From an uncultured virus (IMG/VR IMGVR_UViG_3300026472_000008) (taxonomy: Duplodnaviria; Heunggongvirae; Uroviricota; Caudoviricetes; Crassvirales), in IMG/VR virus record IMGVR_UViG_3300026472_000008: a stretch of 64,000 nt of DNA; one strand, given 5' to 3'. A program made the position numbers and the translations under genes. The notes under the pieces were generated by a model. That model was not told the DNA's origin, did not search any database, and saw only the letters and a list, made by a program, of their open reading frames with translations. Below are positions 1 through 60,207 of the stretch, piece by piece; within the stretch, counting starts at the first letter, position 1; each line of letters starts with the position of its first letter.

Positions 1-3000
1 GATGATAATATCAATGTTCCAAAGAAGTCTATACAAGATGTTATTAAAAAGAAGATTGAATTAGATGATAGTATTTCTTATTTAGAACATACATTGCCTA
101 CTACACAATATAATTATCAAAATGAATATAATGATGTTGCTAGAAATGTAGATAGATTAACTATTGATAGATATAATAAAGCTGTTGATGATGTTAATCA
201 ATATATAGAATCACAAGATAATCTTCAAGAAGCTAGAGATAATATTATGACTAATAATGTTTCTCCACAACTTAAAGAGAAACTTGATATTCTTAAACTA
301 GGTCATCATAGTACTCAACAATATGCTGCTCAAATAAATGCTTTACTTAAAACTGTAAGACAGGATAGAGAAAAAGCTGCAGAAGATGCTAAAAATGTTA
401 CTGTGGATAATACTACTACAAATGATCAACAAGCTGCTAATGAACGTAATGATGTTGAGAATGTTGTAGATGTAGCAGATACTAGAGAAGAAGTTGTCGA
501 AACTGTCCCCTCTACAGGGGAGGAGCAACAATCTACAGAGGTTACAATACCTGAACTTACTGGAGATATCAATATTGATGGTCAATTTGGTGCTACTGAT
601 CCTAGTAGAAGAAACCCTGCTCCAACTTTTGATGCTGAAGAAGAAGTATCTAGTCTTGAAAAAGATGCCGATGCTATTGAACGTAGAAGAGCTGAAGAGT
701 TTATATTAGATGTTGATAGTAGAGCTGTTGGATTAGCTAGTAGTGTTACTTTTAATCTATTTAAAACTTCTCGTAATCTATTTGATAATCTTGTAGGTAA
801 AGATGTTAATAGTAAAGAGTTTAATGATGTTGTTGATATTGTAGCTGATGAATTGTTACTTCAAGGAGTTTCAAGAGGTTATACAAGATCAGCTTCTGTT
901 GAAGGTATTAAATTAGCTTTTAATATGATTCAACGTAGATTAACAACTAAAGGAGATAGTTCAGCTAATACATTTAAAACTTTAGCTGATCAACTTGCTA
1001 CTAAACAATATGTTGAACCTGTAATTGAAAAAGTAAATACTAATAATAAAAATTCTGTTATAGATAATCTTACTACAGTAGGTTATAAAGTACAAGATGG
1101 AAATAACTTTATAGGTACTGTTGTTAATGATTCTTTTGGAAGATTTATAGTAGAATATCCTAGCGGTAATGATTCTACAATAGCTTATACTAAAGATACT
1201 ATTAATAATATTAAATGGATTGTTGATTTATTATCTAATGATTCTACACGTTCTAATTCAACTACTAGATTAATTCCTGATACAGAGTTTAATCAAGTTG
1301 TTGATCAGTTTATCAATTCTTATATTGATAATAAAGGTATTTATACTGTTAAAGGAACTAAAACTGTTATTAATATAGAAGATCTTTTTAGAGAAATTCT
1401 TAATAATAATGAAATTAGTTTTGAACAAGCTAAACAAATATTTTATAATATTGCTGATTACATTGCAGCAAGTAATAATAAAAACTATATCTTTACTAAT
1501 AAGACTGAACTTAATAAGAACTTAAAGACACCTAGTACTTTCTTTAATAATCTTGTTAATAGTAAATCTACTACTGAAAATATAGATAGTTATATGCATA
1601 TTGCTGCTCCTAGTAAGTTAGCAGATGGATATAATAAAGCTTTAACTGATGCAAAGAATGGTTCTCCTATTACAATTAGTTATTTTGAGAATAATGGATT
1701 TACTAGTCCTAATTCTATATCAATTAAGTCTGGCAATGTAGAGATTGGTTATCTTGGTTCAGTTACTCCTAATAGTACTAATACAGGTTATTCTTTAAAG
1801 AAACAAGATAGAGGTTTTGTTTATAGTTTAGATAATACTAATGGAAGTATTCAAAGTAATTTAGATAAACTATTTGTTCCTCTTATTAATAGAGAAGGTG
1901 AACAGTATGCTCAATTAATGGATATAGCATATAAACAATTTGCTTATGAATCTGCTAATAAAAATAATACTACAAGCGATCCTATTACAGAAGAAGAAGT
2001 TAATAAAGTTGTATTTAATCCTGTTATTAAACAATTGCTTGGAAGTGGGGAAATTAAATATCCTACTTGGACTGTAACTAATAGACAGAAAGCTCAATAT
2101 ATTTTGAATGCTATTAATAATATAGTATTTTATGATATCAATGCTGTAACTATTCCTAGTATTATTGAGAGTTATAATTACTGGAAAGCTTCTACTTATA
2201 ATAATTATGCTAATACTCATAAGATACAACAAGCTTTAGAAAACGATAAAAAGATTACTACTAAACTTGTTAATATATCTAGCGGTAAAGTTTTATTAGA
2301 TAGTGTTAATCATGATATTAATACTAGAGGTTTTACTTATCAACAAAATCCTATTATGATTGTTGATGCTAATGGTAATATTATAAATGAAAATAATAAT
2401 ACTACTTATAGTAATGTAGCCGGATTTGAATCTGGTAGTATGGGATTGTTAGTTGCTGATAATCCTAATGCTCCAATTATTGCTATGTTTACTGAATCTA
2501 ATAAACTTAGTTCTAATGAGAAATTATATAATGATGTATACAATGAACTTGGTACTTTATTTAATGACTTTCAAACTAGAACAATTAGTTTTGATAGATT
2601 AGGTTCAAGACTTGCTGATCTATTTAGTGGACCAGGTGTTAAAAGTAATAATCTATTTAGCGGTTACAGTGTAATTCGTACTTCTGATAGAATAGCTCTT
2701 AATATACAAGGACAAAAAGGACAATATAATGTTATTGTTCATAAGTTTGAAAAGGGAACTAATAAAGAAGGTTTAGGTATTACTTATATTCCTAATGGAA
2801 ATATATCTGAATCTAGAAGTTCTATTAGTCCTGGTAAAAGATTTACTAACGCTATTGCTAAGGAGATTGTAAATAATCTTAGTTTTAATAAAACTTTCTA
2901 TTCTGTTAATAATAAGAATGTTGATAATGATAAACAGAATCAATATATTTATAAAGAGAATGGAAAACTTATAGTAGATATCAATGGTAATAAGAATAGT

Positions 3001-4302
3001 TATGATAGTTTTGGTCATTTTGCTTTGGCTAATAATGCTTTTAAAACTAATCAAGGAGTTAATGCTAATGGGGGTTATTTTGATAATACCGATAAGGTTA
3101 AATCATTATATATCAATACTGATATTATAACCTCCCCTGTAGAGGGAACAGATCAGATTGCACTTGATCAATCTGCTTCTGATATGATTAAATCTGCTTC
3201 TAAAACTGTTGGTGTTAATACTTCTGAACTACTTACTAAAGCAGGTGTTACTAATGATAAGGTTGAAGTTCTTACTGGAACTAATCAATTTAATATAGAA
3301 CTTATTCCTGCTGAATCTTATTATGATAAGACTGCTACAAAAGCAGAAGCTTATTATTCTAAAGGTAAAATGTATTTTACTACTAAAGGTGCTAATGCTA
3401 TTGCTAAAAGTCCTAATAATCTTATTAGACTTCTTATTCATGAAAATCTTCATGCTAAATTTGAAGAACAAGGTTTGTTTCAAAGAGATGCTATAGCAGA
3501 TGATTTATTAGATACTTATGGTGCTATGATCACTGCTATTAATAGTGATACTACTTCTCCAGAAGCAAAAGTTATTAGAGATTGGATTACAACTAATAAA
3601 TTTACTCCTACTGAATATTTTACTACTTTATCTGCTGAACAACAAAGAGTTTGGTCTAATAAAGATGAGATTGATCGTCAACTTAAATTTGCTGAAGAAT
3701 GGCTAGTTGAAAGTATTACTCAACCTGCTATTATAAGATATCTTAATAATACTCCTTATAATGGTGATGTTATTTCTGTTGATGGTATTGATGATAGTGC
3801 TAAGACTATTTGGCAAAAGATCATTGATATTTTACTTAAACTTTTTAATAGAAATAGTGGTAATATAAAAAATAATAGTATATTAGCACAACAATACTCT
3901 ATACTAGGAGCTAATACTGATGCTGTTATTAATACTGAGAGCAATGTTAATACAGAAACAGAAACTAATACTAATGAAACTACTAATGGTGAAACTCCAA
4001 TAGTTGTTAATACTCCTAACGAAGACCTCGGAAATCTTCAACTTGATAATTCAGTTGATACTAGTGTTGATCAAATAGACGAACAAAGTGATGTTGATGA
4101 TCTAGATTTTGCTGTAACTAATTTAATTGAAACACCTGACGATGTTATTGTTCAAGCTTATAATGAAGCTAATGATGTTAATATGAACGGTGTACAAGTT
4201 GTTACTGATATGAATAAATACGTCGACCAGTTCGCCGAACAGGATAAGCCGTTAATAGCTAAAATGATAGCGCAGAATGAATTGAAATTTCGCTGTCAAT
4301 AG
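1..4302 (+). CDS. Large virion cargo/ejection protein with zincin-like HExxH motif (5'-truncated by window edge)
   Basis: Frame is open from position 1. LLIHENLHAKF plus a downstream AEEWLVE motif. Lies directly before the virion RNAP gene, as in crAss-like phages. Confidence 0.75.
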   Translation, partial: DDNINVPKKSIQDVIKKKIELDDSISYLEHTLPTTQYNYQNEYNDVARNVDRLTIDRYNKAVDDVNQYIESQDNLQEARDNIMTNNVSPQLKEKLDILKLGHHSTQQYAAQINALLKTVRQDREKAAEDAKNVTVDNTTTNDQQAANERNDVENVVDVADTREEVVETVPSTGEEQQSTEVTIPELTGDINIDGQFGATDPSRRNPAPTFDAEEEVSSLEKDADAIERRRAEEFILDVDSRAVGLASSVTFNLFKTSRNLFDNLVGKDVNSKEFNDVVDIVADELLLQGVSRGYTRSASVEGIKLAFNMIQRRLTTKGDSSANTFKTLADQLATKQYVEPVIEKVNTNNKNSVIDNLTTVGYKVQDGNNFIGTVVNDSFGRFIVEYPSGNDSTIAYTKDTINNIKWIVDLLSNDSTRSNSTTRLIPDTEFNQVVDQFINSYIDNKGIYTVKGTKTVINIEDLFREILNNNEISFEQAKQIFYNIADYIAASNNKNYIFTNKTELNKNLKTPSTFFNNLVNSKSTTENIDSYMHIAAPSKLADGYNKALTDAKNGSPITISYFENNGFTSPNSISIKSGNVEIGYLGSVTPNSTNTGYSLKKQDRGFVYSLDNTNGSIQSNLDKLFVPLINREGEQYAQLMDIAYKQFAYESANKNNTTSDPITEEEVNKVVFNPVIKQLLGSGEIKYPTWTVTNRQKAQYILNAINNIVFYDINAVTIPSIIESYNYWKASTYNNYANTHKIQQALENDKKITTKLVNISSGKVLLDSVNHDINTRGFTYQQNPIMIVDANGNIINENNNTTYSNVAGFESGSMGLLVADNPNAPIIAMFTESNKLSSNEKLYNDVYNELGTLFNDFQTRTISFDRLGSRLADLFSGPGVKSNNLFSGYSVIRTSDRIALNIQGQKGQYNVIVHKFEKGTNKEGLGITYIPNGNISESRSSISPGKRFTNAIAKEIVNNLSFNKTFYSVNNKNVDNDKQNQYIYKENGKLIVDINGNKNSYDSFGHFALANNAFKTNQGVNANGGYFDNTDKVKSLYINTDIITSPVEGTDQIALDQSASDMIKSASKTVGVNTSELLTKAGVTNDKVEVLTGTNQFNIELIPAESYYDKTATKAEAYYSKGKMYFTTKGANAIAKSPNNLIRLLIHENLHAKFEEQGLFQRDAIADDLLDTYGAMITAINSDTTSPEAKVIRDWITTNKFTPTEYFTTLSAEQQRVWSNKDEIDRQLKFAEEWLVESITQPAIIRYLNNTPYNGDVISVDGIDDSAKTIWQKIIDILLKLFNRNSGNIKNNSILAQQYSILGANTDAVINTESNVNTETETNTNETTNGETPIVVNTPNEDLGNLQLDNSVDTSVDQIDEQSDVDDLDFAVTNLIETPDDVIVQAYNEANDVNMNGVQVVTDMNKYVDQFAEQDKPLIAKMIAQNELKFRCQ
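503..523 (+). repeat. Dispersed motif copy 1 (GGGGAGG variant)
   Basis: CTGTCCCCTCTACAGGGGAGG. Confidence 0.9.
3131..3151 (-). repeat. Dispersed motif copy 2 (GGGGAGG variant)
   Basis: rc CTGTTCCCTCTACAGGGGAGG. Confidence 0.9.
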
Positions 4303-4322
4303 TTTGTACGGATTACAATAGT

Positions 4323-4369: not shown

Positions 4370-4432
4370 ATATTACCACATATTATATATGTTGTTAATT
4401 ATATTGCCAAAACTTATAATAACAATAATGCC

Positions 4433-7400: not shown

Positions 7401-10400
7401 CTTTAAATCTTATTGATCGTGCTCATTATAATGGTGGGGAGATTGTTAAAGATGGAGTTTTAACTGGTAATCTATTTAAGTTTATTAGACTGTTTGAAAC
7501 TAATGGGTATAATCCTAATAGTGAGGTGATACAAGCCTTATCCCTCTACAGGCAAGGGAATGCGAACAGTACTGATAACTTATTTACTGTCAATCGTAAT
7601 GGTAAACTTACTATTAATGCTAATAGAACTGATATTATCAATACTAAGTCTGGTAGAATAGAGTTTTCTATTTCTAATGAAAATGTTGAAAAGCTTAATA
7701 CTATTGTAGAAAATTGGCTTAACAATTACTATAATGAAGTAATAACTAGAACTGAACAATATAATACTATTCTTGAAGATCGTTATTCTACTAATGATAT
7801 TGTTGATTATGCAATTAACAACGCTATTATGGAAATGAACTTTGATGATGTGTTTGAAGGTGATACTAAATTCTATAAATCAGCACAAGATTTTCTTAAG
7901 AGAGCTAAAGAAGTTCAAGCAGCTGGTAAAGCTTATGCAGGTTTTGATATTAACTTGCCTATAGGCGGTGTAGTAAAAGATGTTTTAGATGCTAATGGTA
8001 TTGCTTCTCCTATTATGATTGGAGATATTAATATAGGAAATGCTAGAAATGGTTTTAAAGCAGTTACTATTGAAAATACAGTTAGACCTGCTCAAAATGC
8101 TGGAGAAATAAAACAAGAACTTATTGATATATTAACTCCACAAGTTGGTAAAACTGAAGCTACTAGAATTGCTACTGAAATTAGTGCAGGTTATTTTGAT
8201 AGTACTAAAGTTAATGATGCTCAATCTTATATTACATTAGAAGAGTTTGCTAGACGTCGTTATGCTGATGGAACTTTGAATGAATATCAATCTTTATTGT
8301 CTCAATTAATGGATGATAAAATTAATATTGAAGACATTGATCTTAAAGGTGTAAATGTTAGAGTTCAAGTACAAAAGAATTTCTATTTCGATAAACAGTT
8401 TGATGAAAATACTGGAACTTATTATCCTCGTCAAATTAAAAATGCTGAGTTTGTTCTTATCCCTAAACTAATTAAAGGTACTGATTTAGAAAAGCTTTAT
8501 GATGTAATGAAAGCTAATGGTATAGATCAGGTAAATACTAGTGAAACTTCTAAAGCTGCTAAAAAGAATATACTTACTTTTTGGGACAATAATGGAGTTT
8601 CTAATGTAGATGCTTTTAATCAAGCAGTTAAAGCTAATAATGGAATTGCTATTGAAGATTATTATTATCAATATCTTTATAAGCAACAAGATGTAGCTGA
8701 TCACATGGTTGACGAAAAGAACAAAGCTGGTATTCAAGTTATGAAGAAAATTATTGATAATGCCAACGCAGAAGTGCAAGGAGATATTAATAATTTCTTT
8801 AATAATTATGTTGCTAATATTAAAGATGACTTTAACATGCTTCTAACTCGTATGGGTTGGAAAGTTGGAGAGAATGGAGAACTACAAGATGTTAGTGGCA
8901 AACTAGATGGTAATGGTAGACCTCTTCTTCAGTTTAATGATTTCTATAAGAAAGCAAGAGTAGAAGCTCAACGTCTCGGTATGGATTCTAATTTTATGGA
9001 GTATCTTACTCCGGATGAGTTTGGACAACCTACTATGCCTAATTACATGAATAATGTTTCTAGTAAATTAGAAAGTATTGCTCAAAGTATATTTAATAAC
9101 GGTGTTACGAGACAAACTCTTCCTGGATGGCATGCGGCTCAAGTAACAGGAGTTGGTCATGGTACTAAAGTATTAGGAGAAGATGGTGTTTTCAGAGAAC
9201 TTAAATATCATCCTAAAGTTACTGATGGAAATGATAATACAGTTCAAGAATCTTATACTGAAATAATGATTCCTCGTTGGAGTAAGTTAATTCCTAAGGA
9301 TTATGATATTAATAAACTTGCTACTGAAGGACTTGATATTCATTTAGGTTATCGTATTCCTACTGAAGGAAAACAATCTATTAGTAATATGAAAGTTGTA
9401 GGTTTCTTAGATGAAATCTATGGTTCTACTGTAATGTTAGCTGATCCTTGGGTTACTCAAACTGGTTCTGATTTTGACGTTGATAGTGTTTATGCTATTT
9501 CTTTTGAAATGTATAAAGATAAAGATGGTACTATTAAGAAAATTAAGTTAGATACTACTAATGAAGAAAAAGATATTCAACGTAGATATGTTAATTATGT
9601 TAACTCTACTATTGAAGAGAAAGTTGATAGAGATCAATTAGATGATGAATTTGTTAATAATGAAATTAATAAAGTTCGTAATGATTTAAAAGATCTTAAT
9701 AAAAGACGTAGAGATTCTACTACTTTTAATCAAATTATTGCAGAAGAGAAAGCTATTTATAATCAACTTCCTGTAGAAATACAAGAACAAATTAAGACTG
9801 TAAATAGAGCTTTCGCTAATGGAGATATTGTAGAAAAATATAATTATATAGCTAATGCTTTTTATAATCTTGCAGATCAACAAGAAACTCCTGAAGCTAA
9901 AGATTTACTTGAACAGTTTGCTAATTATAATGAAACTCTTGCTAATATTATTAATCTTAGTAGAGAAACTAGAGAGTCTGAACCTCAACAAATTAAGTCT
10001 GCTGTAAGTGAGAAACTTAAAGAAATTTATGAAAAGAACAGATTAGATTATCTTGATAAAGTTGAGAAAGCTGCTAAGAAGGTAGGTATAGTTAGTTATG
10101 CAGAATTTGCTAAATGGTCTATTATAGAACAGAATAATAGAAAGGCTCGTAATAATGATATACTTAATAGTATGATCAATATTATGAACAATACTAATTC
10201 TCGTGAAGAAAACTATTCTCGTAGTAATTTTGATGATCTAACTAATGCTATGAAGAAGATGAATAATCTTCGTGGTGCTTCTGCTTTAGCTCGTAGTACT
10301 TATAATCCATTAGATCAAATTGATTTTATGGAGAATGCTATGAGTGGTGCTACACTTAAAGCTTTTTCTGTTACTAGAGATACTTTTAATTCTGTTAATA

Positions 10401-13400
10401 ACTATATTAAATCTACTCTTAGTGGAGAACATACTATATTTGTAGAATATGATTTAAATCAATATGATCTTAAACAGATTCAAAATGCTTATGATGGCGT
10501 TCAAGTTGATCAAAAGAATAATTTTGCTATTGTTAATCATAATCGCCTTGCTAATAGTAAGAATAATAGGAATGTTGTAGGTAAGATTCTTACTGTATAT
10601 AGTTCACAAACTACAGCTCACATTTTAGATGCTGTTAAAGAAGGTACTATTTTCAATGAGAATGATTATACCTTTGGTACATTTAAAACTCTTGTAGATT
10701 TAGGTATAGATTATGATACTGCTGTAGGTTTCTTAATGCAACCAGGAGTTACTAGAATTGTAGATGCTTATTTTCAAACTAAAAGTATTTATATTAATTC
10801 TAGTTCTATACCTGTTAATACTGCTATTAAATCTATTGCTACTGAGCTAGGTATTACAATAGGTGGTAGGGCTATTGATGCTTATACTCCTATCAAATTG
10901 GTTATTCAGCAGATAAGTGGTAATAGAAATATGCAAATGGCCTTTAGGGAGCTATTTAATACTAATATAAGCTATGCTAATACCTTTGATGGACTAAAGG
11001 TCAACTTGAATGGTAGAATGTTGCAAAACCGCTTAAAACAAGCCGAAATAACTAATAATTCAGAATTGCGGACTGATACAAAGCGTTATAGAGATTATGC
11101 TTTTGATCTTGCTATGATAGTTAACTTTGATAAGTATCGTAGAACTGCTCGTAATATTGAAAGTATTGCAAGAGTAAGTAATCCTGATAGATTTGGCGCA
11201 AAGCAAACTATTAGAAGTACTCGTAATACTTTAAATAATATTATTAAATATAGTAATGATCCTAATGATATTGTAGGTAATACTATTATGGTTGGTGATA
11301 GTAATATCATACAAAGATTATATCCAGGAATTGGAACTAATCAAGGTATTGATATTGAAACTAGTGGATATCCTTATCTAGCCGCTTTCTTAAAGTATGC
11401 TACAATGCCTAGTGTTGAAGCTAATAGTCAATTGTTTCCTACTGAAAGTTTATCTTATACTAATGTTACAGATACTGTACAGCGTAGATTAGGTGTTAAT
11501 TTTACTGATGAACAGTATAAAGAATATAAACAATATATGATGTCTAGTGTTTATAGTGGAGTTCAGTTTTTAACTTCGCCTTTAACACTGAATGATTATG
11601 GTTTAGTTACTTTAGATAATAAGACTATTCAAGATCAGATGGAAAGTGATGAACTATATTGGGATTCTGAAAGAGGTAGAATATTTGGTTATGATACTAC
11701 TCAAAGTTCATCTTTAGAAATAGCTGATATTAATAATCCTACTATTGAAGATATATATAATTTTAATCAACTTACTCCTGCTCAGAAAGTTATGTGGATA
11801 CAACGTAATTTTAATGAGAATAGAGGTGTATTTGATTTTCTTGATGTAAATACTTTCAATCAGTATGAATTTAAGAATAAAGGTTTTACTAGTCAAACTA
11901 TTAAATATAGTGATCAGATAGATGATGTTGAAGAGATATTTGTTTCTTTTAGAGATAGTTTCTTTAATAAAAATCCTTTAGTTCGTCTTGCTTCTATTGA
12001 TCTTATTAAATATGCTTTTGTAGTTGAAGGGTTTAAATTTAAAAAAGGTAGTATTAGTAAGATTATTACTAATGATGCTATGTATTCAAATCTTGAAGAT
12101 AAAGGTATGAATATTATTGAAGCAGTACAACAACAATTTGCTGTTTATAATAATCCTTTTGAACAAGCTACTCTTAAAGCTATTGATAAGTTTGTTAGAA
12201 GTCATAGTGAGATTGTCAAAGAAGTGAGTATCCCTAAAGGCAAGAAAGACAAGCAGGGTAATGACAATATTGGCCTTAAACTTACTAAACAATTGTCTGG
12301 TGATAATGTTATTTATATACCATTTCAAGAGTCTACTAAAGAATTACTTGAGCATATTTCTATTAAAGAAGATAGTCCTTTAGATTATATTAGACTTACT
12401 AAGTATATTAGCGATAATAGAAAAAGAACTACATTATATAAAATTAAGAACGATGGTAGAGGTGTTTATTTACTACCTTTAAATCTTCTTGAACGTAATG
12501 AGACTTCTGACTATTCAGCTAATCCTAAGAATAATATTTATAGAGCTTTTGAGTATTATGATACTATATCTAATATGGCAAGTGAAGCTAATACTACTAT
12601 AAACGAACTTCTTAAACAGCCAGATACTATGGCTGAAATTGATATTCTTCAAAATCAGTTTACTATAGACAAACATCAGACTAAACATGTTATAGAAACT
12701 CTTGAAAATAGAGATGAGATTAATCGTATTCTACAATATGGTAGTAATGTTGAGAAAGCTGAGACTGCTAAATTTGTTAAAGATATTAATGATTACTTTG
12801 CCTTGCCTGTAGAGGAACAACAATCATATGGAGTAGTTAGAAATGATAATAGATTTATTAATTCTCTTGTTCCTACAGCTACTTTTATTATTCAGAATAT
12901 TCCTAATGGGGAAGAGATTATTACTATTAAGATTTCTAAATATACTAAAAATAATGGCCTTAGTAAACAATTTAGATATGTTCTTAGTGATGATAAACGA
13001 GGTGATATTACTAAAGTAAAACCTGAAGAACTTAGTGCTTTACAAAATTCTATTGATGCTAAGAGTGTTCGTCCTACTCTTTATAAGATTGAACGTGTTA
13101 CTAGTGAACAAGAGCGTCAAGATTATGAACAACTTAAAGCTGAAATAGAAAAAGAGAATGCTGATAGAATGGATGCTGTTACAAATCTTATTGAAGATTT
13201 TGATGTAGATGTAGCATATAATTTTACAGATATTGATAAAGTAGCTAAAGATATCTTTAATGAACTTAATAAACGTGCATTATCTAATGATGATAAACGT
13301 GCTTCTAAGTTTAAGAAAGGTATGGATGTTGCAGGAATTGATAGAATGAGTGCTGATTCTATTCACAATAATAAGAAGAATATATATACTTCTGCTGCTA

Positions 13401-20392: not shown

Positions 20393-20425
20393 GGATATAA
20401 TCTTAATAGATCAACACCGTTTTAT

Positions 20426-20438
20426 CTTGCCTGTAGGG
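20426..20438 (-). repeat. Dispersed motif copy 6 (short variant, intergenic)
   Basis: rc CCCTACAGGCAAG. Confidence 0.8.
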
Positions 20439-20455
20439 TAATCACCATTATATAA

Positions 20456-24372: not shown

Positions 24373-24654
24373 TTACTTACAAAGTTTAGTATATTCAGCA
24401 AATATAAAACTTAGTTCTTCTTCACTAAGTATCATACTACCAGTAGTACCTATAAGTCTAAAATTACTAGACTTACCATCATGATTACGTTTAAACAAAA
24501 ATTCCTGAGCAGAAATAAGAATAATTTCTCCATCTTTAATAACTTCAATACGATCTTCTTTATCAGAAGTATTAACAGAAATAGTTGTCTTTCCTGTTCC
24601 CTCTACAGGCAAGGTTTTACTATCTTTACTTTTACCCAATCCAAATAAGTTCAT
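24373..24654 (-). CDS. Hypothetical protein
   Basis: Operon-packed ORF. Confidence 0.55.
   Translation of the reverse strand: MNLFGLGKSKDSKTLPVEGTGKTTISVNTSDKEDRIEVIKDGEIILISAQEFLFKRNHDGKSSNFRLIGTTGSMILSEEELSFIFAEYTKLCK
24594..24614 (+). repeat. Dispersed motif copy 7
   Basis: CTGTTCCCTCTACAGGCAAGG. Confidence 0.95.
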
Positions 24655-37881: not shown

Positions 37882-39258
37882 CTACCAAATATTATCGTCA
37901 TTTGTTTCAGTATATCCAATAAAATCTTCACTATCGTCTATAACCTTAATTAAAGCCGATTCTTTTTGTTCAGCAAGCACTTTGGCCTCTAAAGTACCAC
38001 GACAATAAACCTTATAGTTAATAGTAGGTTCGCTAGTAAAACTAACACCACTAAATCTAGTTTTAAAGTCAATTATCCCATCGACCGTAGGAGTGCTAAA
38101 TATTATCAAATCTACAGCCGTTTTAAGCTTGCTATCCGAACTATTTTTTATTGATAGTATATTTATATTACCATCGTTAAAACGCTTCGCATTCGCTGTA
38201 GAAATGGCCACTGCCCCGATCACTTTAGGTTGACCTTTATTTGCACCACTTTTAACAAGTATAGTTTGACCATATTCGTCAGTAGCGATTGTACTCTCAA
38301 TAGTATTATGAAAATCTCCACATTTAAGTAAAGAGTTTTTATTAATATATTCAGTAATAGCTGAGGCGAATTCCCCACGTTTAGAAACAATTATTATTTT
38401 CTTGTCTTTATGTTCTATACATAGATCAAGAATAACTTGTAGTTTAGCAGCATTATCTGTAGCAAGTTCTCTACGTTCTCTAAGAATATTGTAAAAAGTA
38501 GTAGCTCGTTCAAGTAAGACATTAGGATTATAAATATCATCTATCTGTCTATTAAAAGTACTAGTACAATCTAATTCAGGATGCCAACCATTTTGCCTGG
38601 CTATCTGATCTCTAAAGTCAATAGCACTAGTATTAGTTCTAGGATCACCCATTTTACATTTCTCAATATTATAAAATTCACCGAATATACTAATAGAAGT
38701 AGCAATATATTCAGCACATTTATCGTATAGAGCTTTATCTTCATCATTCATATCAACGCCAATCCTGTATTCCTCTACAGGCAAGTAAATTTTATCGGCA
38801 CGAACAGAAGCGGGTGAAACAGTAACTTCAATAGCAGGCAAAAACTCACGAACACCAGTAATAAATTCATTATTCATAATGTTCTCAGTAAGAATAGCTA
38901 ATACATACTTACCTTGAGTACCTACAAATTGTAAAAAGTCAAGACTATTATTAATACCAACAGTAATGATTAATTTATAATCATATTTATACTCTTTCTT
39001 AATATAGTCAGCACTTAAAATAGTAACATTATCATTAAGAGAATTAAACTTTAATTTCTCAATAATAGCTACTCTAGTATCATAACAGTCAACAATAACA
39101 AATACTTTCTCTTCTGGAGAACGTACTCTATAAGCAGTTATCATACCAAGAATAACAGCTGCGGGTTCAATAGGTTCAAAACAATATACACTTGCTCTAC
39201 CTCTATTTTGTTGAAAGCCGCTTACAACTTCTTTAACATATTTATCTTGATTATTCAT
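37882..39258 (-). CDS. SF2 helicase-like protein with degenerate ATPase motifs
   Basis: C-terminal AKLQVILDLC..HKDKKIIIVS, FHN, RFNDG.INIL, DLIIF resemble helicase_C. No recognisable GxGKT or DExD/H. Confidence 0.5.
   Translation of the reverse strand: MNNQDKYVKEVVSGFQQNRGRASVYCFEPIEPAAVILGMITAYRVRSPEEKVFVIVDCYDTRVAIIEKLKFNSLNDNVTILSADYIKKEYKYDYKLIITVGINNSLDFLQFVGTQGKYVLAILTENIMNNEFITGVREFLPAIEVTVSPASVRADKIYLPVEEYRIGVDMNDEDKALYDKCAEYIATSISIFGEFYNIEKCKMGDPRTNTSAIDFRDQIARQNGWHPELDCTSTFNRQIDDIYNPNVLLERATTFYNILRERRELATDNAAKLQVILDLCIEHKDKKIIIVSKRGEFASAITEYINKNSLLKCGDFHNTIESTIATDEYGQTILVKSGANKGQPKVIGAVAISTANAKRFNDGNINILSIKNSSDSKLKTAVDLIIFSTPTVDGIIDFKTRFSGVSFTSEPTINYKVYCRGTLEAKVLAEQKESALIKVIDDSEDFIGYTETNDDNIW
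38770..38785 (+). repeat. Dispersed motif copy 11
   Basis: TTCCTCTACAGGCAAG. Confidence 0.95.
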
Positions 39259-39264: not shown

Positions 39265-41616
39265 TTATTTATCTTCTTGTAAATCATCAAATAAGGTAGA
39301 GTGTTGACCTCCATATCTTTTCAATAGATGTTTGCCACTTTTTGTACCTTTGTCTTTATCACCTTTTTGGTTAGGCGAAATACCAAGTTTAATAGGATCA
39401 ATAATCTTCATAGCCTCCTCATGATAATATTTATAATTAATATTACGATGAGTAATAGACTTATCATCAAGAGTATTAAGAACTATTACTTTCTTTCCTG
39501 CAGCGAGATTACTTCTTTTCTTTTCAGTATTATTAACTTTAAATATTGAACCACCTCTATTAGAAACATAAAATCTTACATTTCGTTGAAGTTCTTCATT
39601 AGTAATACCATTACTAAATTCAACATGATATTGTCTACCTACATTCTGAGTTTTACAGAAATCAAGTATATTATTACATTCATAAAGAGTTTCAAGAACA
39701 GGTTTACCATCTGCAAAGTAATTAACTACAGCTTGTGCTACAACAGGCATATCATAACCTTTTGATAGATCAACAGCATACATTAATGGATGCAAAGCGC
39801 CTTTATTAATTGTCTTACCATTAAATTCTTTAACAAAATAGTTATTAATATCTCTATTAATATAACATTCATACTCTTCGCTATCAGCTTGCAGATTAGT
39901 AGCAGTTTTCCAATCATCTACAATCTTTTCAAACTTCTCTTTGTCTCTCTTATATAACTTTACAACTATACCATCCGTATTCGCACTAACAACCTCTATT
40001 CCTCCCAACTCCAAATCCTCACATACCATCATAATCATTAACTGACCATTAATAGTAACTTTAAGAACTGCCATTTTATCCTTTAAATCACCATATTCAT
40101 AACCCAACTTACCATAAATAGAATTAATAACAATCTTAAGAGCTTCTGCAAGTAAATCTTTAGGAATACCATCAATAATTGGTTCCTTAGAGTGTTTAGC
40201 CGCAATCCTAGTATTCATAATCCACTCAACAAGTTTAACAAAAACACCTTCATTAAGATGTTTAGGTGCAACTCTACGAGTAACCATTATACGAGGATAA
40301 AAACTAGAAATATCAAAGTGAACATAAACAAAACTATCATCGGTTAAGTTAGACCACTCCGCATCCTCTGGCTTAACCTTGCCTGTAGAGGGATTAATCG
40401 ATATACATTTACTTCTCAACTCTCTAGGAGTATCTTGACTATGTAAACCTCCAGTAGCAATAGTATATACTAACTTACCAAGTTTAACCTCTCTTAAAAA
40501 TGAATCTTTGTTAACAGAATGAACTATAACTTTCTTCATATCTTCAAGTAGATCTTGAAGTTCAGGAGTTTTAAACTTAATATCATCAATAATAACTCGT
40601 CTAAAAGCCATAGCAGTACGTTCAGTCTTTTGACCTTGCCACTGTTTAGGATGTAAACCGCTAAACTCTGAATAAAACTTAGTAAAAAGCTTATCAGCAA
40701 TATCACTTCTAGAACTACTTAGAACATTTACACCATAAGAATTGGTAACACTATATCTAAGTTTAATTTCATCAATATATAACCTAATCATTTCACACAC
40801 AATGAAAATATCATTTTCCATATAGTGCATAGTATCAGCAATGTGTTCAGGTAGAATATATCTATCCCACTTATCAATAATCTTATTAAGACCTTCAGCA
40901 TTAATACCTTTATATCTTAAATCATTCCAATATAATTTATAATCATTTTCTCCAATAGGTGGAAGATCATGTTCCAATAGTTGATACCATTGTAAATTAA
41001 TAGAAGTTTGTTTAAGACTTTTAGGAAAATATATAGTATTTCCTGTAACTTTATCTACACCCTTACCACATTTGTTAAGAGCAAAGATAGTCATTACATC
41101 AACATCTACATAAGGTAAACCAAATTTCTTAAGACTATTAAGAAAATAATCTCCTCGAGCAAGCTCAGGATTATTTTGAGTTTCAATAATAGTTTTTGAA
41201 GTATCATATAATTTGGTAATAAGTTCTTTGGTAGTATTGACTTGACCAGCATACATAAGTAAAGCTGCAACCATAAATCTATCATACCTACCACTATTAT
41301 AACCAAACATATCAGTACGAACAGCTTCATTATTTTCAAGCCTATGAGGACTCATTTGATTAAGTCTTGAAAGCATTGGAAACAACTGACTATCATCATT
41401 ATCAGTAATATAAAATTTATCTTTCTTTACAGTAGCCAATCTATCAACTATTTCTTCAACAGTTAAACACTGAATTAAAGGAACAGGTTTTTTCTTACCA
41501 TTACTATCAGTTTTGACACAATCTGCAAATACTTTAAGATAATCAGTAACACTAACAATACCTATCGAAAAGAAGTTAGGTAGTATCTCAACATCATAAG
41601 CATTAGATAATATCAT
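39265..41616 (-). CDS. polB: Family B DNA polymerase
   Basis: YDVE (ExoI), GYNS..YD, FDISSFYP, KIVINSIYGKLG, ANTDGI. Confidence 0.93.
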   Translation of the reverse strand: MILSNAYDVEILPNFFSIGIVSVTDYLKVFADCVKTDSNGKKKPVPLIQCLTVEEIVDRLATVKKDKFYITDNDDSQLFPMLSRLNQMSPHRLENNEAVRTDMFGYNSGRYDRFMVAALLMYAGQVNTTKELITKLYDTSKTIIETQNNPELARGDYFLNSLKKFGLPYVDVDVMTIFALNKCGKGVDKVTGNTIYFPKSLKQTSINLQWYQLLEHDLPPIGENDYKLYWNDLRYKGINAEGLNKIIDKWDRYILPEHIADTMHYMENDIFIVCEMIRLYIDEIKLRYSVTNSYGVNVLSSSRSDIADKLFTKFYSEFSGLHPKQWQGQKTERTAMAFRRVIIDDIKFKTPELQDLLEDMKKVIVHSVNKDSFLREVKLGKLVYTIATGGLHSQDTPRELRSKCISINPSTGKVKPEDAEWSNLTDDSFVYVHFDISSFYPRIMVTRRVAPKHLNEGVFVKLVEWIMNTRIAAKHSKEPIIDGIPKDLLAEALKIVINSIYGKLGYEYGDLKDKMAVLKVTINGQLMIMMVCEDLELGGIEVVSANTDGIVVKLYKRDKEKFEKIVDDWKTATNLQADSEEYECYINRDINNYFVKEFNGKTINKGALHPLMYAVDLSKGYDMPVVAQAVVNYFADGKPVLETLYECNNILDFCKTQNVGRQYHVEFSNGITNEELQRNVRFYVSNRGGSIFKVNNTEKKRSNLAAGKKVIVLNTLDDKSITHRNINYKYYHEEAMKIIDPIKLGISPNQKGDKDKGTKSGKHLLKRYGGQHSTLFDDLQEDK
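40377..40393 (-). repeat. Dispersed motif copy 12
   Basis: rc TCCCTCTACAGGCAAGG. Confidence 0.95.
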
Positions 41617-46572: not shown

Positions 46573-46592
46573 ATTATGTATTTGGTTTAAGT

Positions 46593-46820
46593 TTATTGTT
46601 CCTTGCCTGTAGAGGGAATCATCTTATCTACTTTAGCTTCTATAACACTAAGACATTCATCAGCAAATGCTCTAGCTACTTTATCTACACATTTATCAAT
46701 TGTCCTATTATCACCAGTAAATAATAACCATTCCCAATAAGTTGTACCAGTTCTATTATCTTCATCTTGATCAAATATAACTTTAGCAACTTCTTCTTTA
46801 ATTTTATATAAAGATTTCAT
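46593..46820 (-). CDS. Hypothetical protein
   Basis: Operon-packed ORF. Confidence 0.5.
   Translation of the reverse strand: MKSLYKIKEEVAKVIFDQDEDNRTGTTYWEWLLFTGDNRTIDKCVDKVARAFADECLSVIEAKVDKMIPSTGKEQ
46601..46618 (-). repeat. Dispersed motif copy 13
   Basis: rc TTCCCTCTACAGGCAAGG. Confidence 0.95.
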
Positions 46821-49239: not shown

Positions 49240-50081
49240 TATCTTCCTTCATTAGAGTTAACAATGAACTGTACTTCTTTCTCATCATACACCTGTTCAA
49301 ATCTCATATCTTTCTCAATATTAAGAAATGTATCAATAGTATTTTGAGCACTAGCAGAGAAACTAGAGAATGAAGCAACAAAACAGTTAATAAAGAATAC
49401 TTCAACATATTCATATTCTTTAACTAGATTACCACACTTAACAACAAACTTATCCCACTTAAAGTCAACAAAACGACCACCACCACGAATTTCTCCTTTT
49501 TGTAGAAGATAATTAAGTACACCTAATGCAGTATATCTTCTAATCTCTGCATTATTCTTAATAATAAGAACCATTTGAACAATATGTTCAGGATATACTC
49601 CCATTTCTGGTCTATTCATACCATTATTCCTAAATACTTCACCATTAGGTTTACCTTGATAAGGTCTACCATAATTAGCATTATGATGCTTTTGATAAGG
49701 TTTATTAGGAGCACCTTTATCATGAGAATGTTTAGGTGCAGGTTTAGTTGTTCCCTCTACAGGCAAGGGAGACTTAGCAGGTACAGTCTGCTTAATATCC
49801 ACAACCTCTTCTACTTTAGGAACATCGATACCTTTATCTTCAAGTACACCAGCAAGAGAAGCTAAATCTTTAACAGGTTCTTTTTTAACCTTTAGAACTT
49901 TATCTCCAACAGGAGCAGCTTCAGGTTGTAATGAACTTTCAATTGCATTAGCAAGTTCATCAATTTCTTTTTTGTCTTGTTTAACATCTGTAGTTTTAGC
50001 GTTTAGAACAAGTTTTTTAGCATTCTTTTTAGCAGGATACTTAGTATCAACTGAATTAGTAGTTTCTGTTTTCTTTGCCAT
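49239..50081 (-). CDS. Hypothetical protein with a disordered K-rich N-terminal half
   Basis: 280-aa ORF. Confidence 0.65.
   Translation of the reverse strand: MAKKTETTNSVDTKYPAKKNAKKLVLNAKTTDVKQDKKEIDELANAIESSLQPEAAPVGDKVLKVKKEPVKDLASLAGVLEDKGIDVPKVEEVVDIKQTVPAKSPLPVEGTTKPAPKHSHDKGAPNKPYQKHHNANYGRPYQGKPNGEVFRNNGMNRPEMGVYPEHIVQMVLIIKNNAEIRRYTALGVLNYLLQKGEIRGGGRFVDFKWDKFVVKCGNLVKEYEYVEVFFINCFVASFSSFSASAQNTIDTFLNIEKDMRFEQVYDEKEVQFIVNSNEGR
49750..49768 (+). repeat. Dispersed motif copy 14
   Basis: GTTCCCTCTACAGGCAAGG. Confidence 0.95.
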
Positions 50082-54209: not shown

Positions 54210-54246
54210 AGTTATAAGATTAATTATATAAATAATAGCAAGTTTT

Positions 54247-56189: not shown

Positions 56190-56238
56190 TATTCTAATAA
56201 TATGCGACAAAGCTGTAATGGTCTAATTGTCTTTGCTA

Positions 56239-56255
56239 TCCCTCTACAGGCAAGG
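56239..56255 (+). repeat. Dispersed motif copy 15 (intergenic, upstream of the HU/IHF-like gene)
   Basis: TCCCTCTACAGGCAAGG. Confidence 0.95.
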
Positions 56256-56322
56256 TTCAATTATCTATTACAGCTTTTATTATTTACGTAATGTTAAATG
56301 TGGAGATCAATTTAATTATAAT

Positions 56323-59870: not shown

Positions 59871-60207
59871 TTCTGCTGTTCCCTCTACAGGCAAGGTACT
59901 ACAATCAGATACAAGTAAAGTAATTATTCCAATTGCTTTTTTACGTGATGCTAATGCTAAACTTATTGAACGTATTTATCTCATTAAGATTAATAAAGAA
60001 CAAGATAGTATTATTAAATTAAATAAATTATATAACATTGAACAGTCTAATATTATTAAAGACTTTCAAGGTAGAGTTGTTAATTTAACTAATGATAATA
60101 ATCGTCTTAAATTATCTAATGATAAATATAAAAGAGCTAATAAAACTCTAGCTACTATAGTAGGTGGAGCAATTGTAACTGTAGCTGGTATTCTATTTCT
60201 TAAATAA
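59782..60207 (+). CDS. Overlapping lipoprotein/spanin-like protein
   Basis: MMLKGVISLMIVLLLSC lipobox-like start overlapping the previous gene out of frame; coiled coil; C-terminal hydrophobic helix. Confidence 0.5.
   Translation: MMLKGVISLMIVLLLSCSNNLLHSQILSSSSAVPSTGKVLQSDTSKVIIPIAFLRDANAKLIERIYLIKINKEQDSIIKLNKLYNIEQSNIIKDFQGRVVNLTNDNNRLKLSNDKYKRANKTLATIVGGAIVTVAGILFLK
59876..59896 (+). repeat. Dispersed motif copy 16
   Basis: CTGTTCCCTCTACAGGCAAGG. Confidence 0.95.

What the first reader, a model, noticed from the sequence alone, without database searches (positions are those of the whole stretch)
503..59896. Window-wide GC-rich motif TTCCCTCTACAGGCAAGG written into coding sequences every 2-7 kb
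Seen: 16 copies at 503, 3131, 7541, 12801, 20375, 20426, 24594, 29659, 32057, 33869, 38770, 40377, 46601, 49750, 56239 and 59876. Fourteen carry the exact 10-mer CCTCTACAGG and 12 carry the exact 14-mer CCTCTACAGGCAAG. In a roughly 70% AT genome a back-of-envelope expectation for that 10-mer is far below one copy. Thirteen copies lie inside ORFs, including RNAP, PolB, primase and ligase. They are read in three registers (PSTG, SLYRQ/SLYGQ, PVE) using codons otherwise rare here (CCC, AGG, GGG), so selection acts on the DNA rather than the peptide. The motif is an imperfect dyad around an asymmetric core: TT(C)CCT-CTAC-AGG(C)AA. Inference: a cis-acting site system, for example binding sites for a genome-organising, packaging or ejection protein (parS/matS-like), programmed nick sites (as in T5 or phiKMV-like phages, although those lie on one strand), or recombination sites. 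I know of no such element described in Crassvirales.
Basis: partly seen in the sequence, partly recalled or inferred. Interest (0 to 1): 0.92.

Follow-up and report, generated by a model that had tools for sequence, protein, structure and literature searches.

The report
Strand-tiled DNA word of crAss phages
This crAss-like phage writes one GC-rich DNA word about every 7 kb along each of its two strands, even through essential genes and at the same places as human-gut crAssphage, so some still unidentified phage machine must read it.

Summary
The window has 14 exact CCTCTACAGG (0.03 expected) and 16 sites in all, 9 on + and 7 on -. It is not an assembly artefact, a hairpin or a mobile element.

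It is this phage's dialect of a word shared by Crudevirinae crAss-like phages. All nine relatives analysed carry 18-33 copies of the same core (CCTCTACRGG), including prototype crAssphage (32 sites) and cultured Rudgehvirus jaberico (30). Each genome has its own 3' half. Sites sit at exactly orthologous positions in primase, ligase, PolB, SNF2 ATPase and RNAP genes: 56 of 69 mappings keep a site. Flanks have diverged to 40% identity against 78% in the word.

Sites on one strand avoid each other (4 pairs within 1.5 kb, 54 expected; median gap 6.4 kb). Opposite-strand sites do not, and pair up at 130 bp or less (16 against 5).

So a co-evolving, strand-specific reader exists; its identity and job are not shown. 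My best guess, at about 0.35, is fixed start sites for strand synthesis (priming). Rivals are RNA-polymerase start signals, nick sites and a private Chi-like signal.

Earlier notes of this scan report the same phenomenon in at least 14 other genomes. I found no paper describing it.

The parts
506..533 (+). site 1, GGGGAGG variant of the word (TCCCCTCTACAGGGGAGG + N7 + ATC), inside the 5'-open ORF 1-4302, sense
   Evidence: (40.2 bits)
3121..3148 (-). site 2, GGGGAGG variant, inside ORF 1-4302, antisense; orthologous site in G005
   Evidence: (42.8 bits)
7540..7567 (+). site 3, inside the giant RNAP gene 4433-18034, sense; orthologous site in 4 of 4 mapped relatives
12791..12818 (-). site 4, inside the RNAP gene, antisense; orthologous site in 2 of 2 mapped relatives and in IMG/VR fragment L024
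20375..20402 (+). site 5, intergenic; left member of a convergent opposite-strand pair 52 bp apart, just upstream of ORF 19936-20358(-)
20415..20442 (-). site 6, degenerate copy (one base shorter in the core), intergenic; right member of the pair; full copies at this locus in G002 and G010
   Evidence: (15.4 bits)
24597..24624 (+). site 7, inside ORF 24373-24654(-), antisense; absent at the mapped place in G005
29648..29675 (-). site 8, weakest full copy (TTCTCTCTACGGGCAAGA), in the dNMP kinase gene 29504-30244, sense; site kept in 4 of 8 mapped relatives
   Evidence: (28.8 bits)
32064..32091 (+). site 9, in the ATP-dependent DNA ligase gene 31102-32316(-), antisense (LPVEE); site kept in 8 of 9 mapped relatives including crAssphage
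33858..33885 (-). site 10, in the primase-like gene 33501-34712, sense (SLYRQ), in a variable loop; kept in 9 of 9 relatives
38769..38796 (+). site 11, in ORF 37882-39258(-) (orthologue of crAssphage gp17, SNF2-like ATPase), antisense; kept in 9 of 9 relatives
40367..40394 (-). site 12, in the family B DNA polymerase gene 39265-41616, sense (PSTGK); kept in 7 of 9 relatives
46591..46618 (-). site 13, intergenic, sense, about 28 nt upstream of the ATG of ORF 46312-46572(-); not mappable in relatives
49751..49778 (+). site 14, in ORF 49239-50081(-), antisense; not mappable in relatives
56238..56265 (+). site 15, intergenic (after ORF 55602-56189), sense; orthologous site in G005
59879..59906 (+). 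site 16, best-scoring copy, in ORF 59743-60207 upstream of the large terminase gene, sense (PSTGK); kept in 9 of 9 relatives
   Evidence: (50.1 bits)
33501..34712 (-). candidate reader (inference only): stand-alone DnaG/T7 gp4-type primase homologue
   Evidence: PHROG 12622 'DNA primase' E 7.5e-79; low-confidence AF2 model (pLDDT 59, C-terminal half about 85-90) whose 12 best PDB matches are all DnaG or T7 gp4 primases; binding to the word not tested

Best explanation
SHOWN. The motif is this phage's dialect of a strand-specific DNA recognition word shared by Crudevirinae crAss-like phages. The word is a 7-nt pyrimidine tract, then AC, then a purine-rich tract, with core CCTCTACRGG. It is selected on the DNA, overriding codon usage and amino-acid choice. 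It is kept at fixed orthologous positions, and its 3' half changes in concert at all sites of a genome. Copies on the same strand keep 2-13 kb apart; copies on opposite strands are placed independently or as close pairs.

INFERRED. A phage-encoded, co-evolving factor that tracks one DNA strand reads the word.

MOST LIKELY MECHANISM (inference, not shown). The sites are hard-wired start sites for synthesis of a new strand. The pyrimidine tract plus AC would be the recognition part. The G/purine run would be copied into the first nucleotides of an RNA primer, giving a stable GC-rich hybrid in a 29% GC genome. On this reading the even spacing on each strand means either template strand always offers a priming site within about 6-13 kb. 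Close opposite-strand pairs would act as bidirectional start points. Candidate readers are the phage's stand-alone DnaG/T7-type primase or its giant two-barrel RNA polymerase.
For: - Reality and selection: enrichment, codon-preserving shuffle and rare codons, and independent contigs from a second sample that bridge the sites without differences.
- Clade-wide: the most enriched 12-mer in 8 of 8 relatives screened de novo contains the core. Weight-matrix site sets hold 16-33 sites per genome with 0 in shuffles. These genomes include crAssphage BK010471.1 (32) and Rudgehvirus jaberico (30).
- Fixed positions: 56 of 69 window-site-to-relative mappings keep a site on the expected strand within 12 nt, mostly at offset 0. 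Pairwise identity is 0.78 in the 16-nt block against 0.40 in flanks (222 pairs).
- Dialects and concerted change. The residue after STG is K, E, D or S according to dialect, in both PolB and the ORF upstream of terminase.
- Strand logic, summed over the window and the nine relatives: same-strand pairs within 1.5 kb number 4 against 54.3 expected. Opposite-strand pairs number 48 against 57.6. Within 130 bp, opposite-strand pairs number 16 against 5.0.
- Spacing: per-strand gap variation is below random in 16 of 20 strand sets. The minimum same-strand gap is larger than random in 16 of 20. Orientation alternates more than chance in 10 of 10 genomes (z 1.1-3.0).
- Independence from transcription: inside genes, 104 sites are sense and 95 antisense.
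- Composition: the pyrimidine share before AC is 0.87-1.00 and the purine share after it 0.75-0.93 in all 10 genomes.
- A primase of DnaG/T7 type is encoded.
Against: - No direct evidence of any 5' end, primer or protein binding at a site. Only contigs, no raw reads, were available.
- No step in GC or AT skew at the sites.
- Both convergent (18) and divergent (12) close pairs occur, so there is no single origin-like geometry.
- Intergenic sites are enriched (58 of 257 against 4.5-10% non-coding DNA). Between co-directional genes they are biased to the sense strand (37:12). This suggests a link with transcription that priming does not predict.
- Known single-strand initiation signals are hairpins, and this word does not fold.
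- DnaG-type primases normally read three bases, not 17-28 (recalled). The zinc ligands of this primase's N-terminal domain are not conserved, and its sequence shows no pattern that follows the dialects.
- The genome counts are not independent, because sites are orthologous.
Confidence: 0.35

Rival explanations
1. Start (or stop) signals for a phage-specific RNA polymerase. The word would be a promoter-like site of about 20-28 bp, in the manner of T7-group promoters, read by the giant two-barrel RNAP. The G-run would be the initially transcribed sequence.
For: - It is a long, asymmetric word with a conserved core and lineage-specific positions.
- Intergenic sites are about 2.5-fold enriched and 37:12 sense between co-directional genes. 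At 5 site-rows at divergent junctions the sites point towards the genes.
- Sense-side sites lie within 200 nt of the next gene start in 33% of cases against 18% for random places.
- In crAssphage, intergenic copies are followed by GC-rich hairpins.
- An earlier scan note proposed the same (e1-3276694).
Against: - Inside genes, 95 of 199 sites are antisense, and they tile the antisense strand as evenly as the sense strand.
- No site lies at the window's main divergent junction, 53868-54682.
- For phi14:2, the only crAss-like phage with mapped 5' ends, the authors report no common motif upstream of transcripts made by the virion RNAP (preprint 10.1101/2020.03.07.982082, passages). I found no tiled word in that genome either.
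Confidence: 0.2
2. Recognition sites of a site-specific nicking enzyme, as in T5, phiKMV-like and tf/LUZ24-like phages, but acting on both strands.
For: In those phages the nick motif is enriched, mostly inside genes, and lies at similar positions in relatives. Its spelling differs between relatives, which the authors read as co-evolution of nickase and sites (PMC3517423 and PMC11780129, passages). The phiKMV consensus is also bipartite with a spacer. All of this is matched here.
Against: - All known nick systems keep every site on one strand. Here the split is 9+/7- in the window and about equal in all 10 genomes.
- Opposite-strand sites 26-130 bp apart are three times more frequent than chance (16 against 5.0). 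If both were nicked, the genome would be fragile there.
- No nickase-like domain was found in the window's proteins. However, 28.9 kb of the 92,881-bp genome lies outside the window.
Confidence: 0.15
3. A private Chi-like 'self' signal. A strand-tracking helicase-nuclease or recombination machine, of phage or host, changes behaviour when it meets the word. Phage DNA would then never be resected further than one inter-site distance, while host DNA that lacks the long word is degraded.
For: - Strand specificity, the bounded maximum gap on each strand and indifference to genes fit this.
- A long word would be absent from a host genome by chance (inference).
- The window encodes a RecD/Dda-like helicase, a PD-(D/E)XK-type exonuclease, a Gam-like protein and a RecT orthologue.
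Against: - Known Chi sites are 5-8 nt and belong to the host (recalled).
- It does not explain the enrichment of close opposite-strand pairs or the intergenic sense bias.
- Host genomes could not be searched: there is no host handle and the GroEL scan found nothing.
Confidence: 0.15
4. Binding sites of a double-strand DNA organiser (parS/matS-like, packaging or ejection scaffold).
For: There are many dispersed, conserved sites with roughly regular overall spacing (overall gap CV 0.52-0.77).
Against: A protein that binds duplex DNA would not make same-strand copies exclude each other (4 against 54 within 1.5 kb) while opposite-strand copies do not (48 against 58). The word is asymmetric and not clustered.
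Confidence: 0.05
5. A small mobile GC-rich element (RPE-like or GC-cluster-like), or an assembly or adapter artefact.
For: It is GC-rich in an AT-rich genome and lies in frame inside genes.
Against: - Ungapped alignments run through the sites at offset 0 in relatives with 31-81% local protein identity, so there is no insertion.
- Positions are shared with crAssphage.
- Contigs from two runs of one sample and from a second sample span the sites with no differences.
Confidence: 0.01

Closest known systems
Nick-associated motifs of phages with localized single-strand interruptions (tf/LUZ24-like TACTRTGMC; phiKMV-like CGAC-N5-CCTACTCCGG; T5/BF23)
   Same: A short, enriched, asymmetric word, mostly inside genes, at similar positions in related phages. 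Its spelling drifts with the lineage, and its function is unknown even where nicks are proven (PMC3517423, PMC11780129; passages read).
   Different: Those sites are all on one strand, number 4-14 per genome and are 9-19 bp long. Here both strands carry about equal numbers, with even spacing on each strand, 16-33 sites and 17-28 bp. Nicks were not tested.
T7-group phage promoters (recalled; no sequence used)
   Same: A conserved asymmetric word of about 20 bp with lineage-specific positions that co-evolve with the reading polymerase. A G-rich stretch lies where synthesis would begin.
   Different: T7-group promoters all point with the genes and need a single-subunit RNAP. Here half of the intragenic sites are antisense, and the only RNAP is the giant two-barrel enzyme.
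Single-strand initiation signals and primase recognition sites (plasmid ssi signals such as RSF1010 ssiA/ssiB; T7 gp4 sites; recalled)
   Same: Strand-specific start signals for a dedicated primase, with opposite-strand pairs that can act as a bidirectional origin.
   Different: Plasmid ssi signals are hairpins and occur once or twice per replicon, and T7 sites are 3-5 nt. This word does not fold, is 17-28 nt long and is tiled genome-wide.
Chi sites, KOPS and DNA uptake sequences (recalled)
   Same: Over-represented, strand-specific words read by a machine that moves along DNA.
   Different: Those are 5-12 nt, occur in hundreds to thousands of copies, belong to cellular genomes and are skewed with replication direction. 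Here there are about 30 copies at fixed positions, alternating in orientation, in a phage.
Evenly spaced strand-specific words noted earlier by this scan in other crAss-like phages (AI notes)
   Same: The same phenomenon: a pyrimidine tract, TAY, then a G/purine run, tiled per strand, written through genes, present in crAssphage, with crAss001 having its own spelling. I re-derived each of these points here.
   Different: This window has its own dialect (ACAGGCAAGG plus N7 ATC). Here I also measured the contrast between same-strand exclusion and opposite-strand pairing, the intergenic sense bias and the dialect-dependent amino-acid change. I do not know whether the earlier notes report these.

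Membership tests
Nick-associated phage motifs (T5, phiKMV-like, tf/LUZ24-like) | All sites lie on one DNA strand | tested here: not met
   9 on + and 7 on - in the window; 7-18 sites per strand, no strand empty, in the window and all nine relatives; the rule is taken
Nick-associated phage motifs (T5, phiKMV-like, tf/LUZ24-like) | Enriched motif at similar positions in related phages, with lineage-specific spelling | tested here: met
   56 of 69 mappings keep the site; dialects shown
Nick-associated phage motifs (T5, phiKMV-like, tf/LUZ24-like) | A physical, ligatable nick in virion DNA at the motif | not testable with these tools
   All runs holding this phage are kept as contigs, not raw reads
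T7-group promoters | Sites point in the direction of the genes and lie upstream of genes | tested here: not met
   104 sense against 95 antisense inside genes; only 33% of sense-side sites lie within 200 nt of a gene start
T7-group promoters | Phage encodes a single-subunit T7-like RNA polymerase | tested here: not met
   No such family among the 62 window ORFs in PHROGs or the 59 scanned against Pfam (the giant RNAP ORF, the terminase and the portal were not given to Pfam). The RNAP here aligns with the RNAP gene of crAssphage, annotated 'putative RNAP catalytic subunit fused to unknown RNAP subunit'. 28.9 kb of the genome was not seen
Chi-type sites | Short (5-8 nt) word, highly frequent, orientation skewed with replication | tested here: not met
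   17-28 nt, 16 copies per 64 kb, alternating orientation
Chi-type sites | Word belongs to, and is enriched in, the host genome | not tested
   No host genome handle could be obtained
Single-strand initiation (ssi) signals | Stable hairpin in the single strand | tested here: not met
   DNA folding of 15 sites: MFE -0.3 to -5.2 kcal/mol, 1 of 15 with z below -2, and different pairings at different sites
Single-strand initiation (ssi) signals | Strand-specific, recognised by a dedicated primase | tested here: inconclusive
   Strand specificity is met and a DnaG/T7-type primase is encoded; recognition is not testable
Mobile GC-rich mini-elements (RPE-like, GC clusters) | Present as an insertion relative to orthologues, with variable positions | tested here: not met
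   Ungapped tblastx alignments cross the sites at offset 0; the same positions occur in crAssphage
parS/matS-like duplex binding sites | Palindromic or orientation-indifferent sites bound as duplex DNA | tested here: not met
   The word is asymmetric; only same-strand copies exclude each other
Rfam RNA families | Match to a curated covariance model at the sites | tested here: not met
   The only hit in the window plus 60 kb of crAssphage is a tRNA at window 48208-48280(-)

The most novel reading that the evidence does not exclude
crAss-like phages, including the most abundant virus of the human gut, copy their DNA from about 30 hard-wired, strand-specific start sites. Each site would be a pyrimidine tract + AC recognition block followed by a purine run that becomes a polypurine-type RNA primer. 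The primer would be laid by the phage primase or by the QDE-1-like giant RNA polymerase acting on exposed single strands. Replication on both strands would then be programmed by sequence rather than by stochastic priming. Each lineage would keep a private dialect that co-evolves with the enzyme, and intergenic copies would double as transcription starts.
Probability: 0.25. Interest if true: 0.92.

Novelty: new variant of a known kind. Interest (0 to 1): 0.8.

Why it matters
Prototype crAssphage carries 32 copies of this word, and I found no paper that mentions it. The word is strong enough to dictate amino acids in the polymerase, primase, ligase and RNA polymerase, and it has stayed in place while the surrounding sequence diverged to 40% identity. 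It therefore points to an undescribed, probably essential step in how Crassvirales handle their DNA.

Practical value:
- Its dialects offer a marker for classifying crAss lineages.
- It warns anyone recoding or engineering these phages that these positions are constrained.

Cultured relatives (Rudgehvirus jaberico, 30 sites; crAss001 with its own word) make the question directly testable.

Tried and rejected
- Hairpin or cruciform: folding 15 sites as DNA gave weak, inconsistent structures.
- Assembly artefact: rejected by contigs from three runs in two samples.
- Mobile element: rejected by ungapped orthologous alignments.
- Nick test through read ends: impossible, because the runs are held as contigs only.
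- Whole genome of the window: none is held.
- Exact 17-mer scans found only chance-like single hits in IMG/VR (4) and in metagenomes (101 loci). None aligned to the window beyond the motif. Relatives were found instead through a 14-mer scan and the terminase.
- A search with the narrow dialect CTCTACRGGCAAG hit only 9 of 30 relatives. This wrongly suggested patchy distribution until de novo k-mer counts showed other dialects.
- GC/AT skew step at sites: none.
- Host signal test: the phage GroEL gave no bacterial locus, so no host genome was searched.
- Reader hunt:
  - No window protein is unusually similar between genomes that share the CAAG dialect.
  - No nuclease or DNA-binding Pfam, NCBIfam or PDB sequence hit turned up for the conserved unknown proteins.
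  - The primase alignment shows no dialect-linked residues.
- The window ORF next to the site pair is not RepL-like.
- phi14:2 has no comparable tiled word, so its published 5'-end data cannot test the promoter idea here.
- Positional homology with crAss001 could not be mapped, because the proteins are too distant for tblastx.
- Rfam: no family at the sites.

Full report
**1. Observation**

- The 10-mer CCTCTACAGG occurs 14 times in the 64-kb window against 0.03 expected.
- The 18-mer with up to 3 mismatches occurs 15 times.
- A weight matrix built from these finds one more, degenerate copy at 20425-20442(-) and nothing else. That gives 16 sites, 9 on the + strand and 7 on the - strand.
- The motif supplies all of the most enriched 10- and 12-mers of the window.
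- Shuffling synonymous codons within each gene removes the coding copies: 14 observed against a mean of 3.3 and a maximum of 6 in 300 shuffles. The remainder are essentially the unshuffled intergenic copies.
- The word uses codons that are rare here (CCC 2% of Pro, GGG 3% of Gly, AGG 6% of Arg, CTC 1% of Leu).
- The window is 29% GC, with a + gene block at 1-19728, a - block at 19936-53868 and a + block from 54682.

**2. Anatomy**

After TYCCTCTACAGGCAAGG come seven free bases and then A(T)C (A 15/15, T 11/15, C 14/15).
- The word is a 7-nt pyrimidine tract, then AC, then a purine-rich tract. The pyrimidine share is 0.99 and the purine share 0.88 in the window, and 0.87-1.00 and 0.75-0.93 across the ten genomes. 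This produces the look of an imperfect dyad.
- Folded as single-stranded DNA, the 15 strong sites give only -0.3 to -5.2 kcal/mol. One of 15 has z below -2, and the pairings differ from site to site. It is not a hairpin element.
- Rfam has no family there; the only hit in the window is a tRNA at 48208-48280(-).

**3. Not an artefact**

- Logan contigs of two runs of one sample (possibly the source) hold the laid stretch 20300-40299 in a single 92,881-bp contig with no differences.
- Contigs of a run from another sample and study bridge the sites at 20375/20425, 29658 and 32064, also with no differences.
- The genome is therefore about 92.9 kb, and the window shows 64 kb of it.
- Only contigs are kept, so read ends (nicks) cannot be examined.

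**4. Relatives**

- The closest named phages are Crudevirinae (Intestiviridae) crAss-like phages at 66-74% nucleotide identity in parts of the RNAP gene.
- The window's exact 17-mer is almost absent from IMG/VR (4 single hits) and from metagenome contigs (101 loci). None aligned to the window beyond the motif itself.
- Three loci from an earlier 14-mer scan did align with the window. One of their contigs, G003 (87.7 kb), carries 30 copies of a one-letter variant.
- A terminase search gave 39 related loci.
- A search with the narrow dialect hit only 9 of 30 records. De novo k-mer counts then showed that every relative examined has the same core with another 3' half. The most enriched 12-mer contains the core in 8 of 8 genomes screened.
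- Exact CTCTACRGG occurs 16 times in crAssphage BK010471.1, 10 in the cultured Rudgehvirus jaberico, 18 in cr3_1 and 4 in ctbg_1. The reversed control pattern gives 0-1.
- Iterated weight matrices give these site counts, with 0 in shuffles:

| Genome | Sites |
|---|---|
| window (64 kb) | 16 |
| G005 | 18 |
| G002 | 19 |
| G008 | 22 |
| G010 | 23 |
| Rudgehvirus jaberico | 30 |
| G003 | 31 |
| crAssphage | 32 |
| G016 | 33 |
| cr3_1 | 33 |

- Dialects:

| Genome | Spelling |
|---|---|
| window | CCTCTACAGG-CAAGG...ATC |
| G003 | ...GGG-CAAG.T |
| G005 | ...GGG-sGAG.TA |
| G016, cr3_1 | CCTyTACGGG-GGAr |
| crAssphage | CAT-CCTCyACGGG-GrGTm |
| Rudgehvirus | CCTyTACAGG-GGwk |

**5. Fixed positions and concerted change**

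- I mapped each window site into nine relatives by ungapped translated alignment. Of 69 site-to-genome mappings, 56 have a site on the expected strand within 12 nt, mostly at offset 0.
- Per site:

| Window site | Gene | Kept / mapped relatives |
|---|---|---|
| 33873 | primase-like gene | 9 of 9 |
| 38772 | orthologue of crAssphage gp17, SNF2-like ATPase | 9 of 9 |
| 59882 | ORF upstream of terminase | 9 of 9 |
| 32067 | ligase gene | 8 of 9 |
| 40382 | PolB gene | 7 of 9 |
| 7543 | RNAP gene | 4 of 4 |
| 12806 | RNAP gene | 2 of 2 |
| 29663 | dNMP kinase gene | 4 of 8 |
| 20430 | intergenic | 2 of 6 |
| 24600 | ORF 24373-24654 | 0 of 1 |

- The remaining mapped sites were 3136 (kept in 1 of 2 relatives) and 56241 (1 of 1).
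- Four sites (509, 20378, 46606, 49754) could not be mapped in any relative.
- Across eight orthologous groups (222 pairs), identity is 0.78 in the 16-nt block against 0.40 in 58 nt of flanks.
- At each shared position the 3' half follows the genome's own dialect, so all sites of a genome have changed together.
- The protein pays for this. In PolB and in the ORF upstream of terminase, the residue after S-T-G is K in the CAAG genomes, E in GGGGAG/GGGGAA genomes, D in GGGGAT genomes and S in GGCAGT/GGGAGT genomes.
- In the primase the word sits in a loop with insertions and deletions.
- These facts exclude a mobile element and show selection on the DNA by a reader that co-evolves.

**6. Strand logic**

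- Orientation alternates more than chance in 10 of 10 genomes (runs test z 1.1-3.0; window 13 runs of 16, z 2.2).
- The cause is spacing within each strand. Gap variation per strand is below that of random placements in 16 of 20 strand sets (window + CV 0.42, p 0.009; - CV 0.28, p 0.0012).
- The smallest same-strand gap is larger than random in 16 of 20 strand sets. Same-strand gaps have a median of 6.4 kb, with 5-95% between 2.4 and 12.9 kb.
- Pair counts summed over the ten genomes:

| Distance | Same-strand, observed / expected | Opposite-strand, observed / expected |
|---|---|---|
| within 1.5 kb | 4 / 54.3 | 48 / 57.6 |
| within 130 bp | 0 / 4.7 | 16 / 5.0 |

- Of 31 adjacent pairs within 450 bp, 30 are on opposite strands (18 convergent, 12 divergent).
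- The genomes share ancestry and sites, so these are not independent trials. Still, the contrast between same and opposite strand is an internal control.

**7. Relation to genes**

- With my own ATG-ORF calls, 104 sites are sense and 95 antisense inside genes. A further 58 of 257 are intergenic or at gene edges, while non-coding DNA is 4.5-10%.
- Between co-directional genes, intergenic sites are 37 sense to 12 antisense. By my reading of the and 78 lists, 7 of the 12 antisense ones are partners in a close pair. The five site-rows at divergent junctions point towards the genes.
- Sense-side sites lie within 200 nt of the next gene start in 33% of cases, against 18% for random places.
- In crAssphage, intergenic copies are followed by GC-rich hairpins and often by the letters CTACTAAT. 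The window's intergenic copies lack this.
- No site lies at the window's divergent junction, 53868-54682.
- There is no step in GC or AT skew at the sites.

**8. Candidate readers**

- The window encodes:
  - replication and transcription: the giant RNAP, PolB and a primase;
  - a RecD/Dda-like helicase, a ligase and UDG;
  - recombination and repair: a Gam-like protein, a PD-(D/E)XK-type exonuclease, and orthologues of crAssphage RecT, SSB and SNF2 ATPase.
- No nickase, recombinase or known sequence-specific DNA-binding domain was found.
- The primase-like protein has no Pfam or PDB sequence match.
- A low-confidence model (pLDDT 59; C-terminal half about 85-90) has DnaG and T7 gp4 primases as its 12 best PDB matches.
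- The zinc ligands of its N-terminal domain are not conserved, and I saw no residues that follow the dialects.
- No window protein is unusually similar between genomes sharing a dialect.

**9. Mechanism**

What is shown:
- The word is strand-specific, tiled per strand and position-fixed.
- It evolves in concert and is selected at the DNA level.

What follows by inference: a phage-encoded reader that tracks one strand.

I rank the possible jobs as follows.

- Fixed start sites for strand synthesis, about 0.35. This explains the symmetry between strands, the indifference to genes, the bounded gaps and the close opposite-strand pairs. It also explains why an AT-rich genome would insist on a G/purine run, which gives a stable primer-template hybrid.
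- Start signals of the phage RNAP, about 0.2. This best explains the intergenic enrichment and sense bias, but not 95 conserved antisense sites.
- Nick sites, about 0.15. These have the best precedent, but they break the one-strand rule and would put opposite nicks 26-130 bp apart.
- A private Chi-like signal, about 0.15. This explains the tiling and the length of the word, but not the pairs.
- The first two could be one mechanism if the RNAP makes the primers.

**10. Known and new**

- Seven full-text searches found no paper describing such a word in crAss-like phages.
- What I read of each paper:
  - phi14:2 preprint: passages;
  - tf paper and Rembedalsseter paper: passages;
  - crAss001 persistence paper: passages;
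  - everything else: search listings only.
- Earlier notes of this scan describe the same phenomenon (16 notes holding the search words, in at least 14 genomes). So this is not new to the scan.
- I re-derived its main points independently on this window.
- crAss001 (Steigviridae) lacks this core. It has its own word, CTCCAGAAG, 29 times against 0.37 expected, alternating with z 2.6.
- phi14:2 shows no comparable word.

**11. Limits**

- There are no raw reads, no host genome and no experiment.
- 28.9 kb of this genome was not seen.
- Gene calls in relatives are my own.
- Counts over genomes are phylogenetically dependent.

Noticed in passing
window 48208-48280 (-): A tRNA gene (Rfam RF00005, 46.3 bits) lies among small ORFs of the leftward block.
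   Followed up: no
window 22391-22732 (-), 23204-23470 (-), 28095-29027 (-), 20456-20947 (-): Two Tad2-like (anti-Thoeris) paralogues (Pfam PF11195, E 3.5e-25 and 1.5e-22). A Tad3-like protein (PF25185, E 1.5e-7). An N4 gp49/Sf6 gp66-family protein whose N-terminal half matches phrog_872, a PHROG also hit by the two Tad2-like ORFs.
   Followed up: no
window 18061-19728 (+): The phage encodes a full-length GroEL-type chaperonin (PF00118, E 6.7e-64; PHROG 5725). None of the six relatives compared has a homologue, and no close bacterial relative was found by the pattern scan.
   Followed up: partly
window about 19745-19900: Two strong hairpins flanked by A-runs and T-runs sit between the convergent gene blocks. 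They look like bidirectional intrinsic terminators (read).
   Followed up: no
crAssphage BK010471.1: 6022, 28078, 28173, 44954, 58728, 93668, 95865 (loci L326-L330): Intergenic copies of the word are followed by a GC-rich hairpin cassette rich in GCGNAGC-type mini-hairpins, often followed by CTACTAAT. One divergent pair flanks a 95-bp, 78% AT spacer between gp41 and gp42, upstream of the gene annotated RepL-like. This may be a composite element or an origin region.
   Followed up: partly
crAss001 MH675552.1, whole genome: It has its own dispersed word, CTCCAGAAG: 29 copies against 0.37 expected, 18 on + and 11 on -, alternating (z 2.55). Letter for letter it fits the pattern CTCYASRRG together with the Crudevirinae core.
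   Followed up: partly
window 33501-34712 (-): The primase homologue stands alone, with no fused helicase. The cysteine and histidine positions expected for a zinc finger in its N-terminal domain vary among relatives.
   Followed up: partly
MH616963.1 (ctbg_1): This mouse-associated relative has only 4 exact CTCTACRGG. It may use a further core variant or have fewer sites; I did not analyse it de novo.
   Followed up: no
runs X1-X3: The runs holding this gut-type crAss-like phage are labelled phyllosphere metagenome by their records. I did not look further.
   Followed up: no
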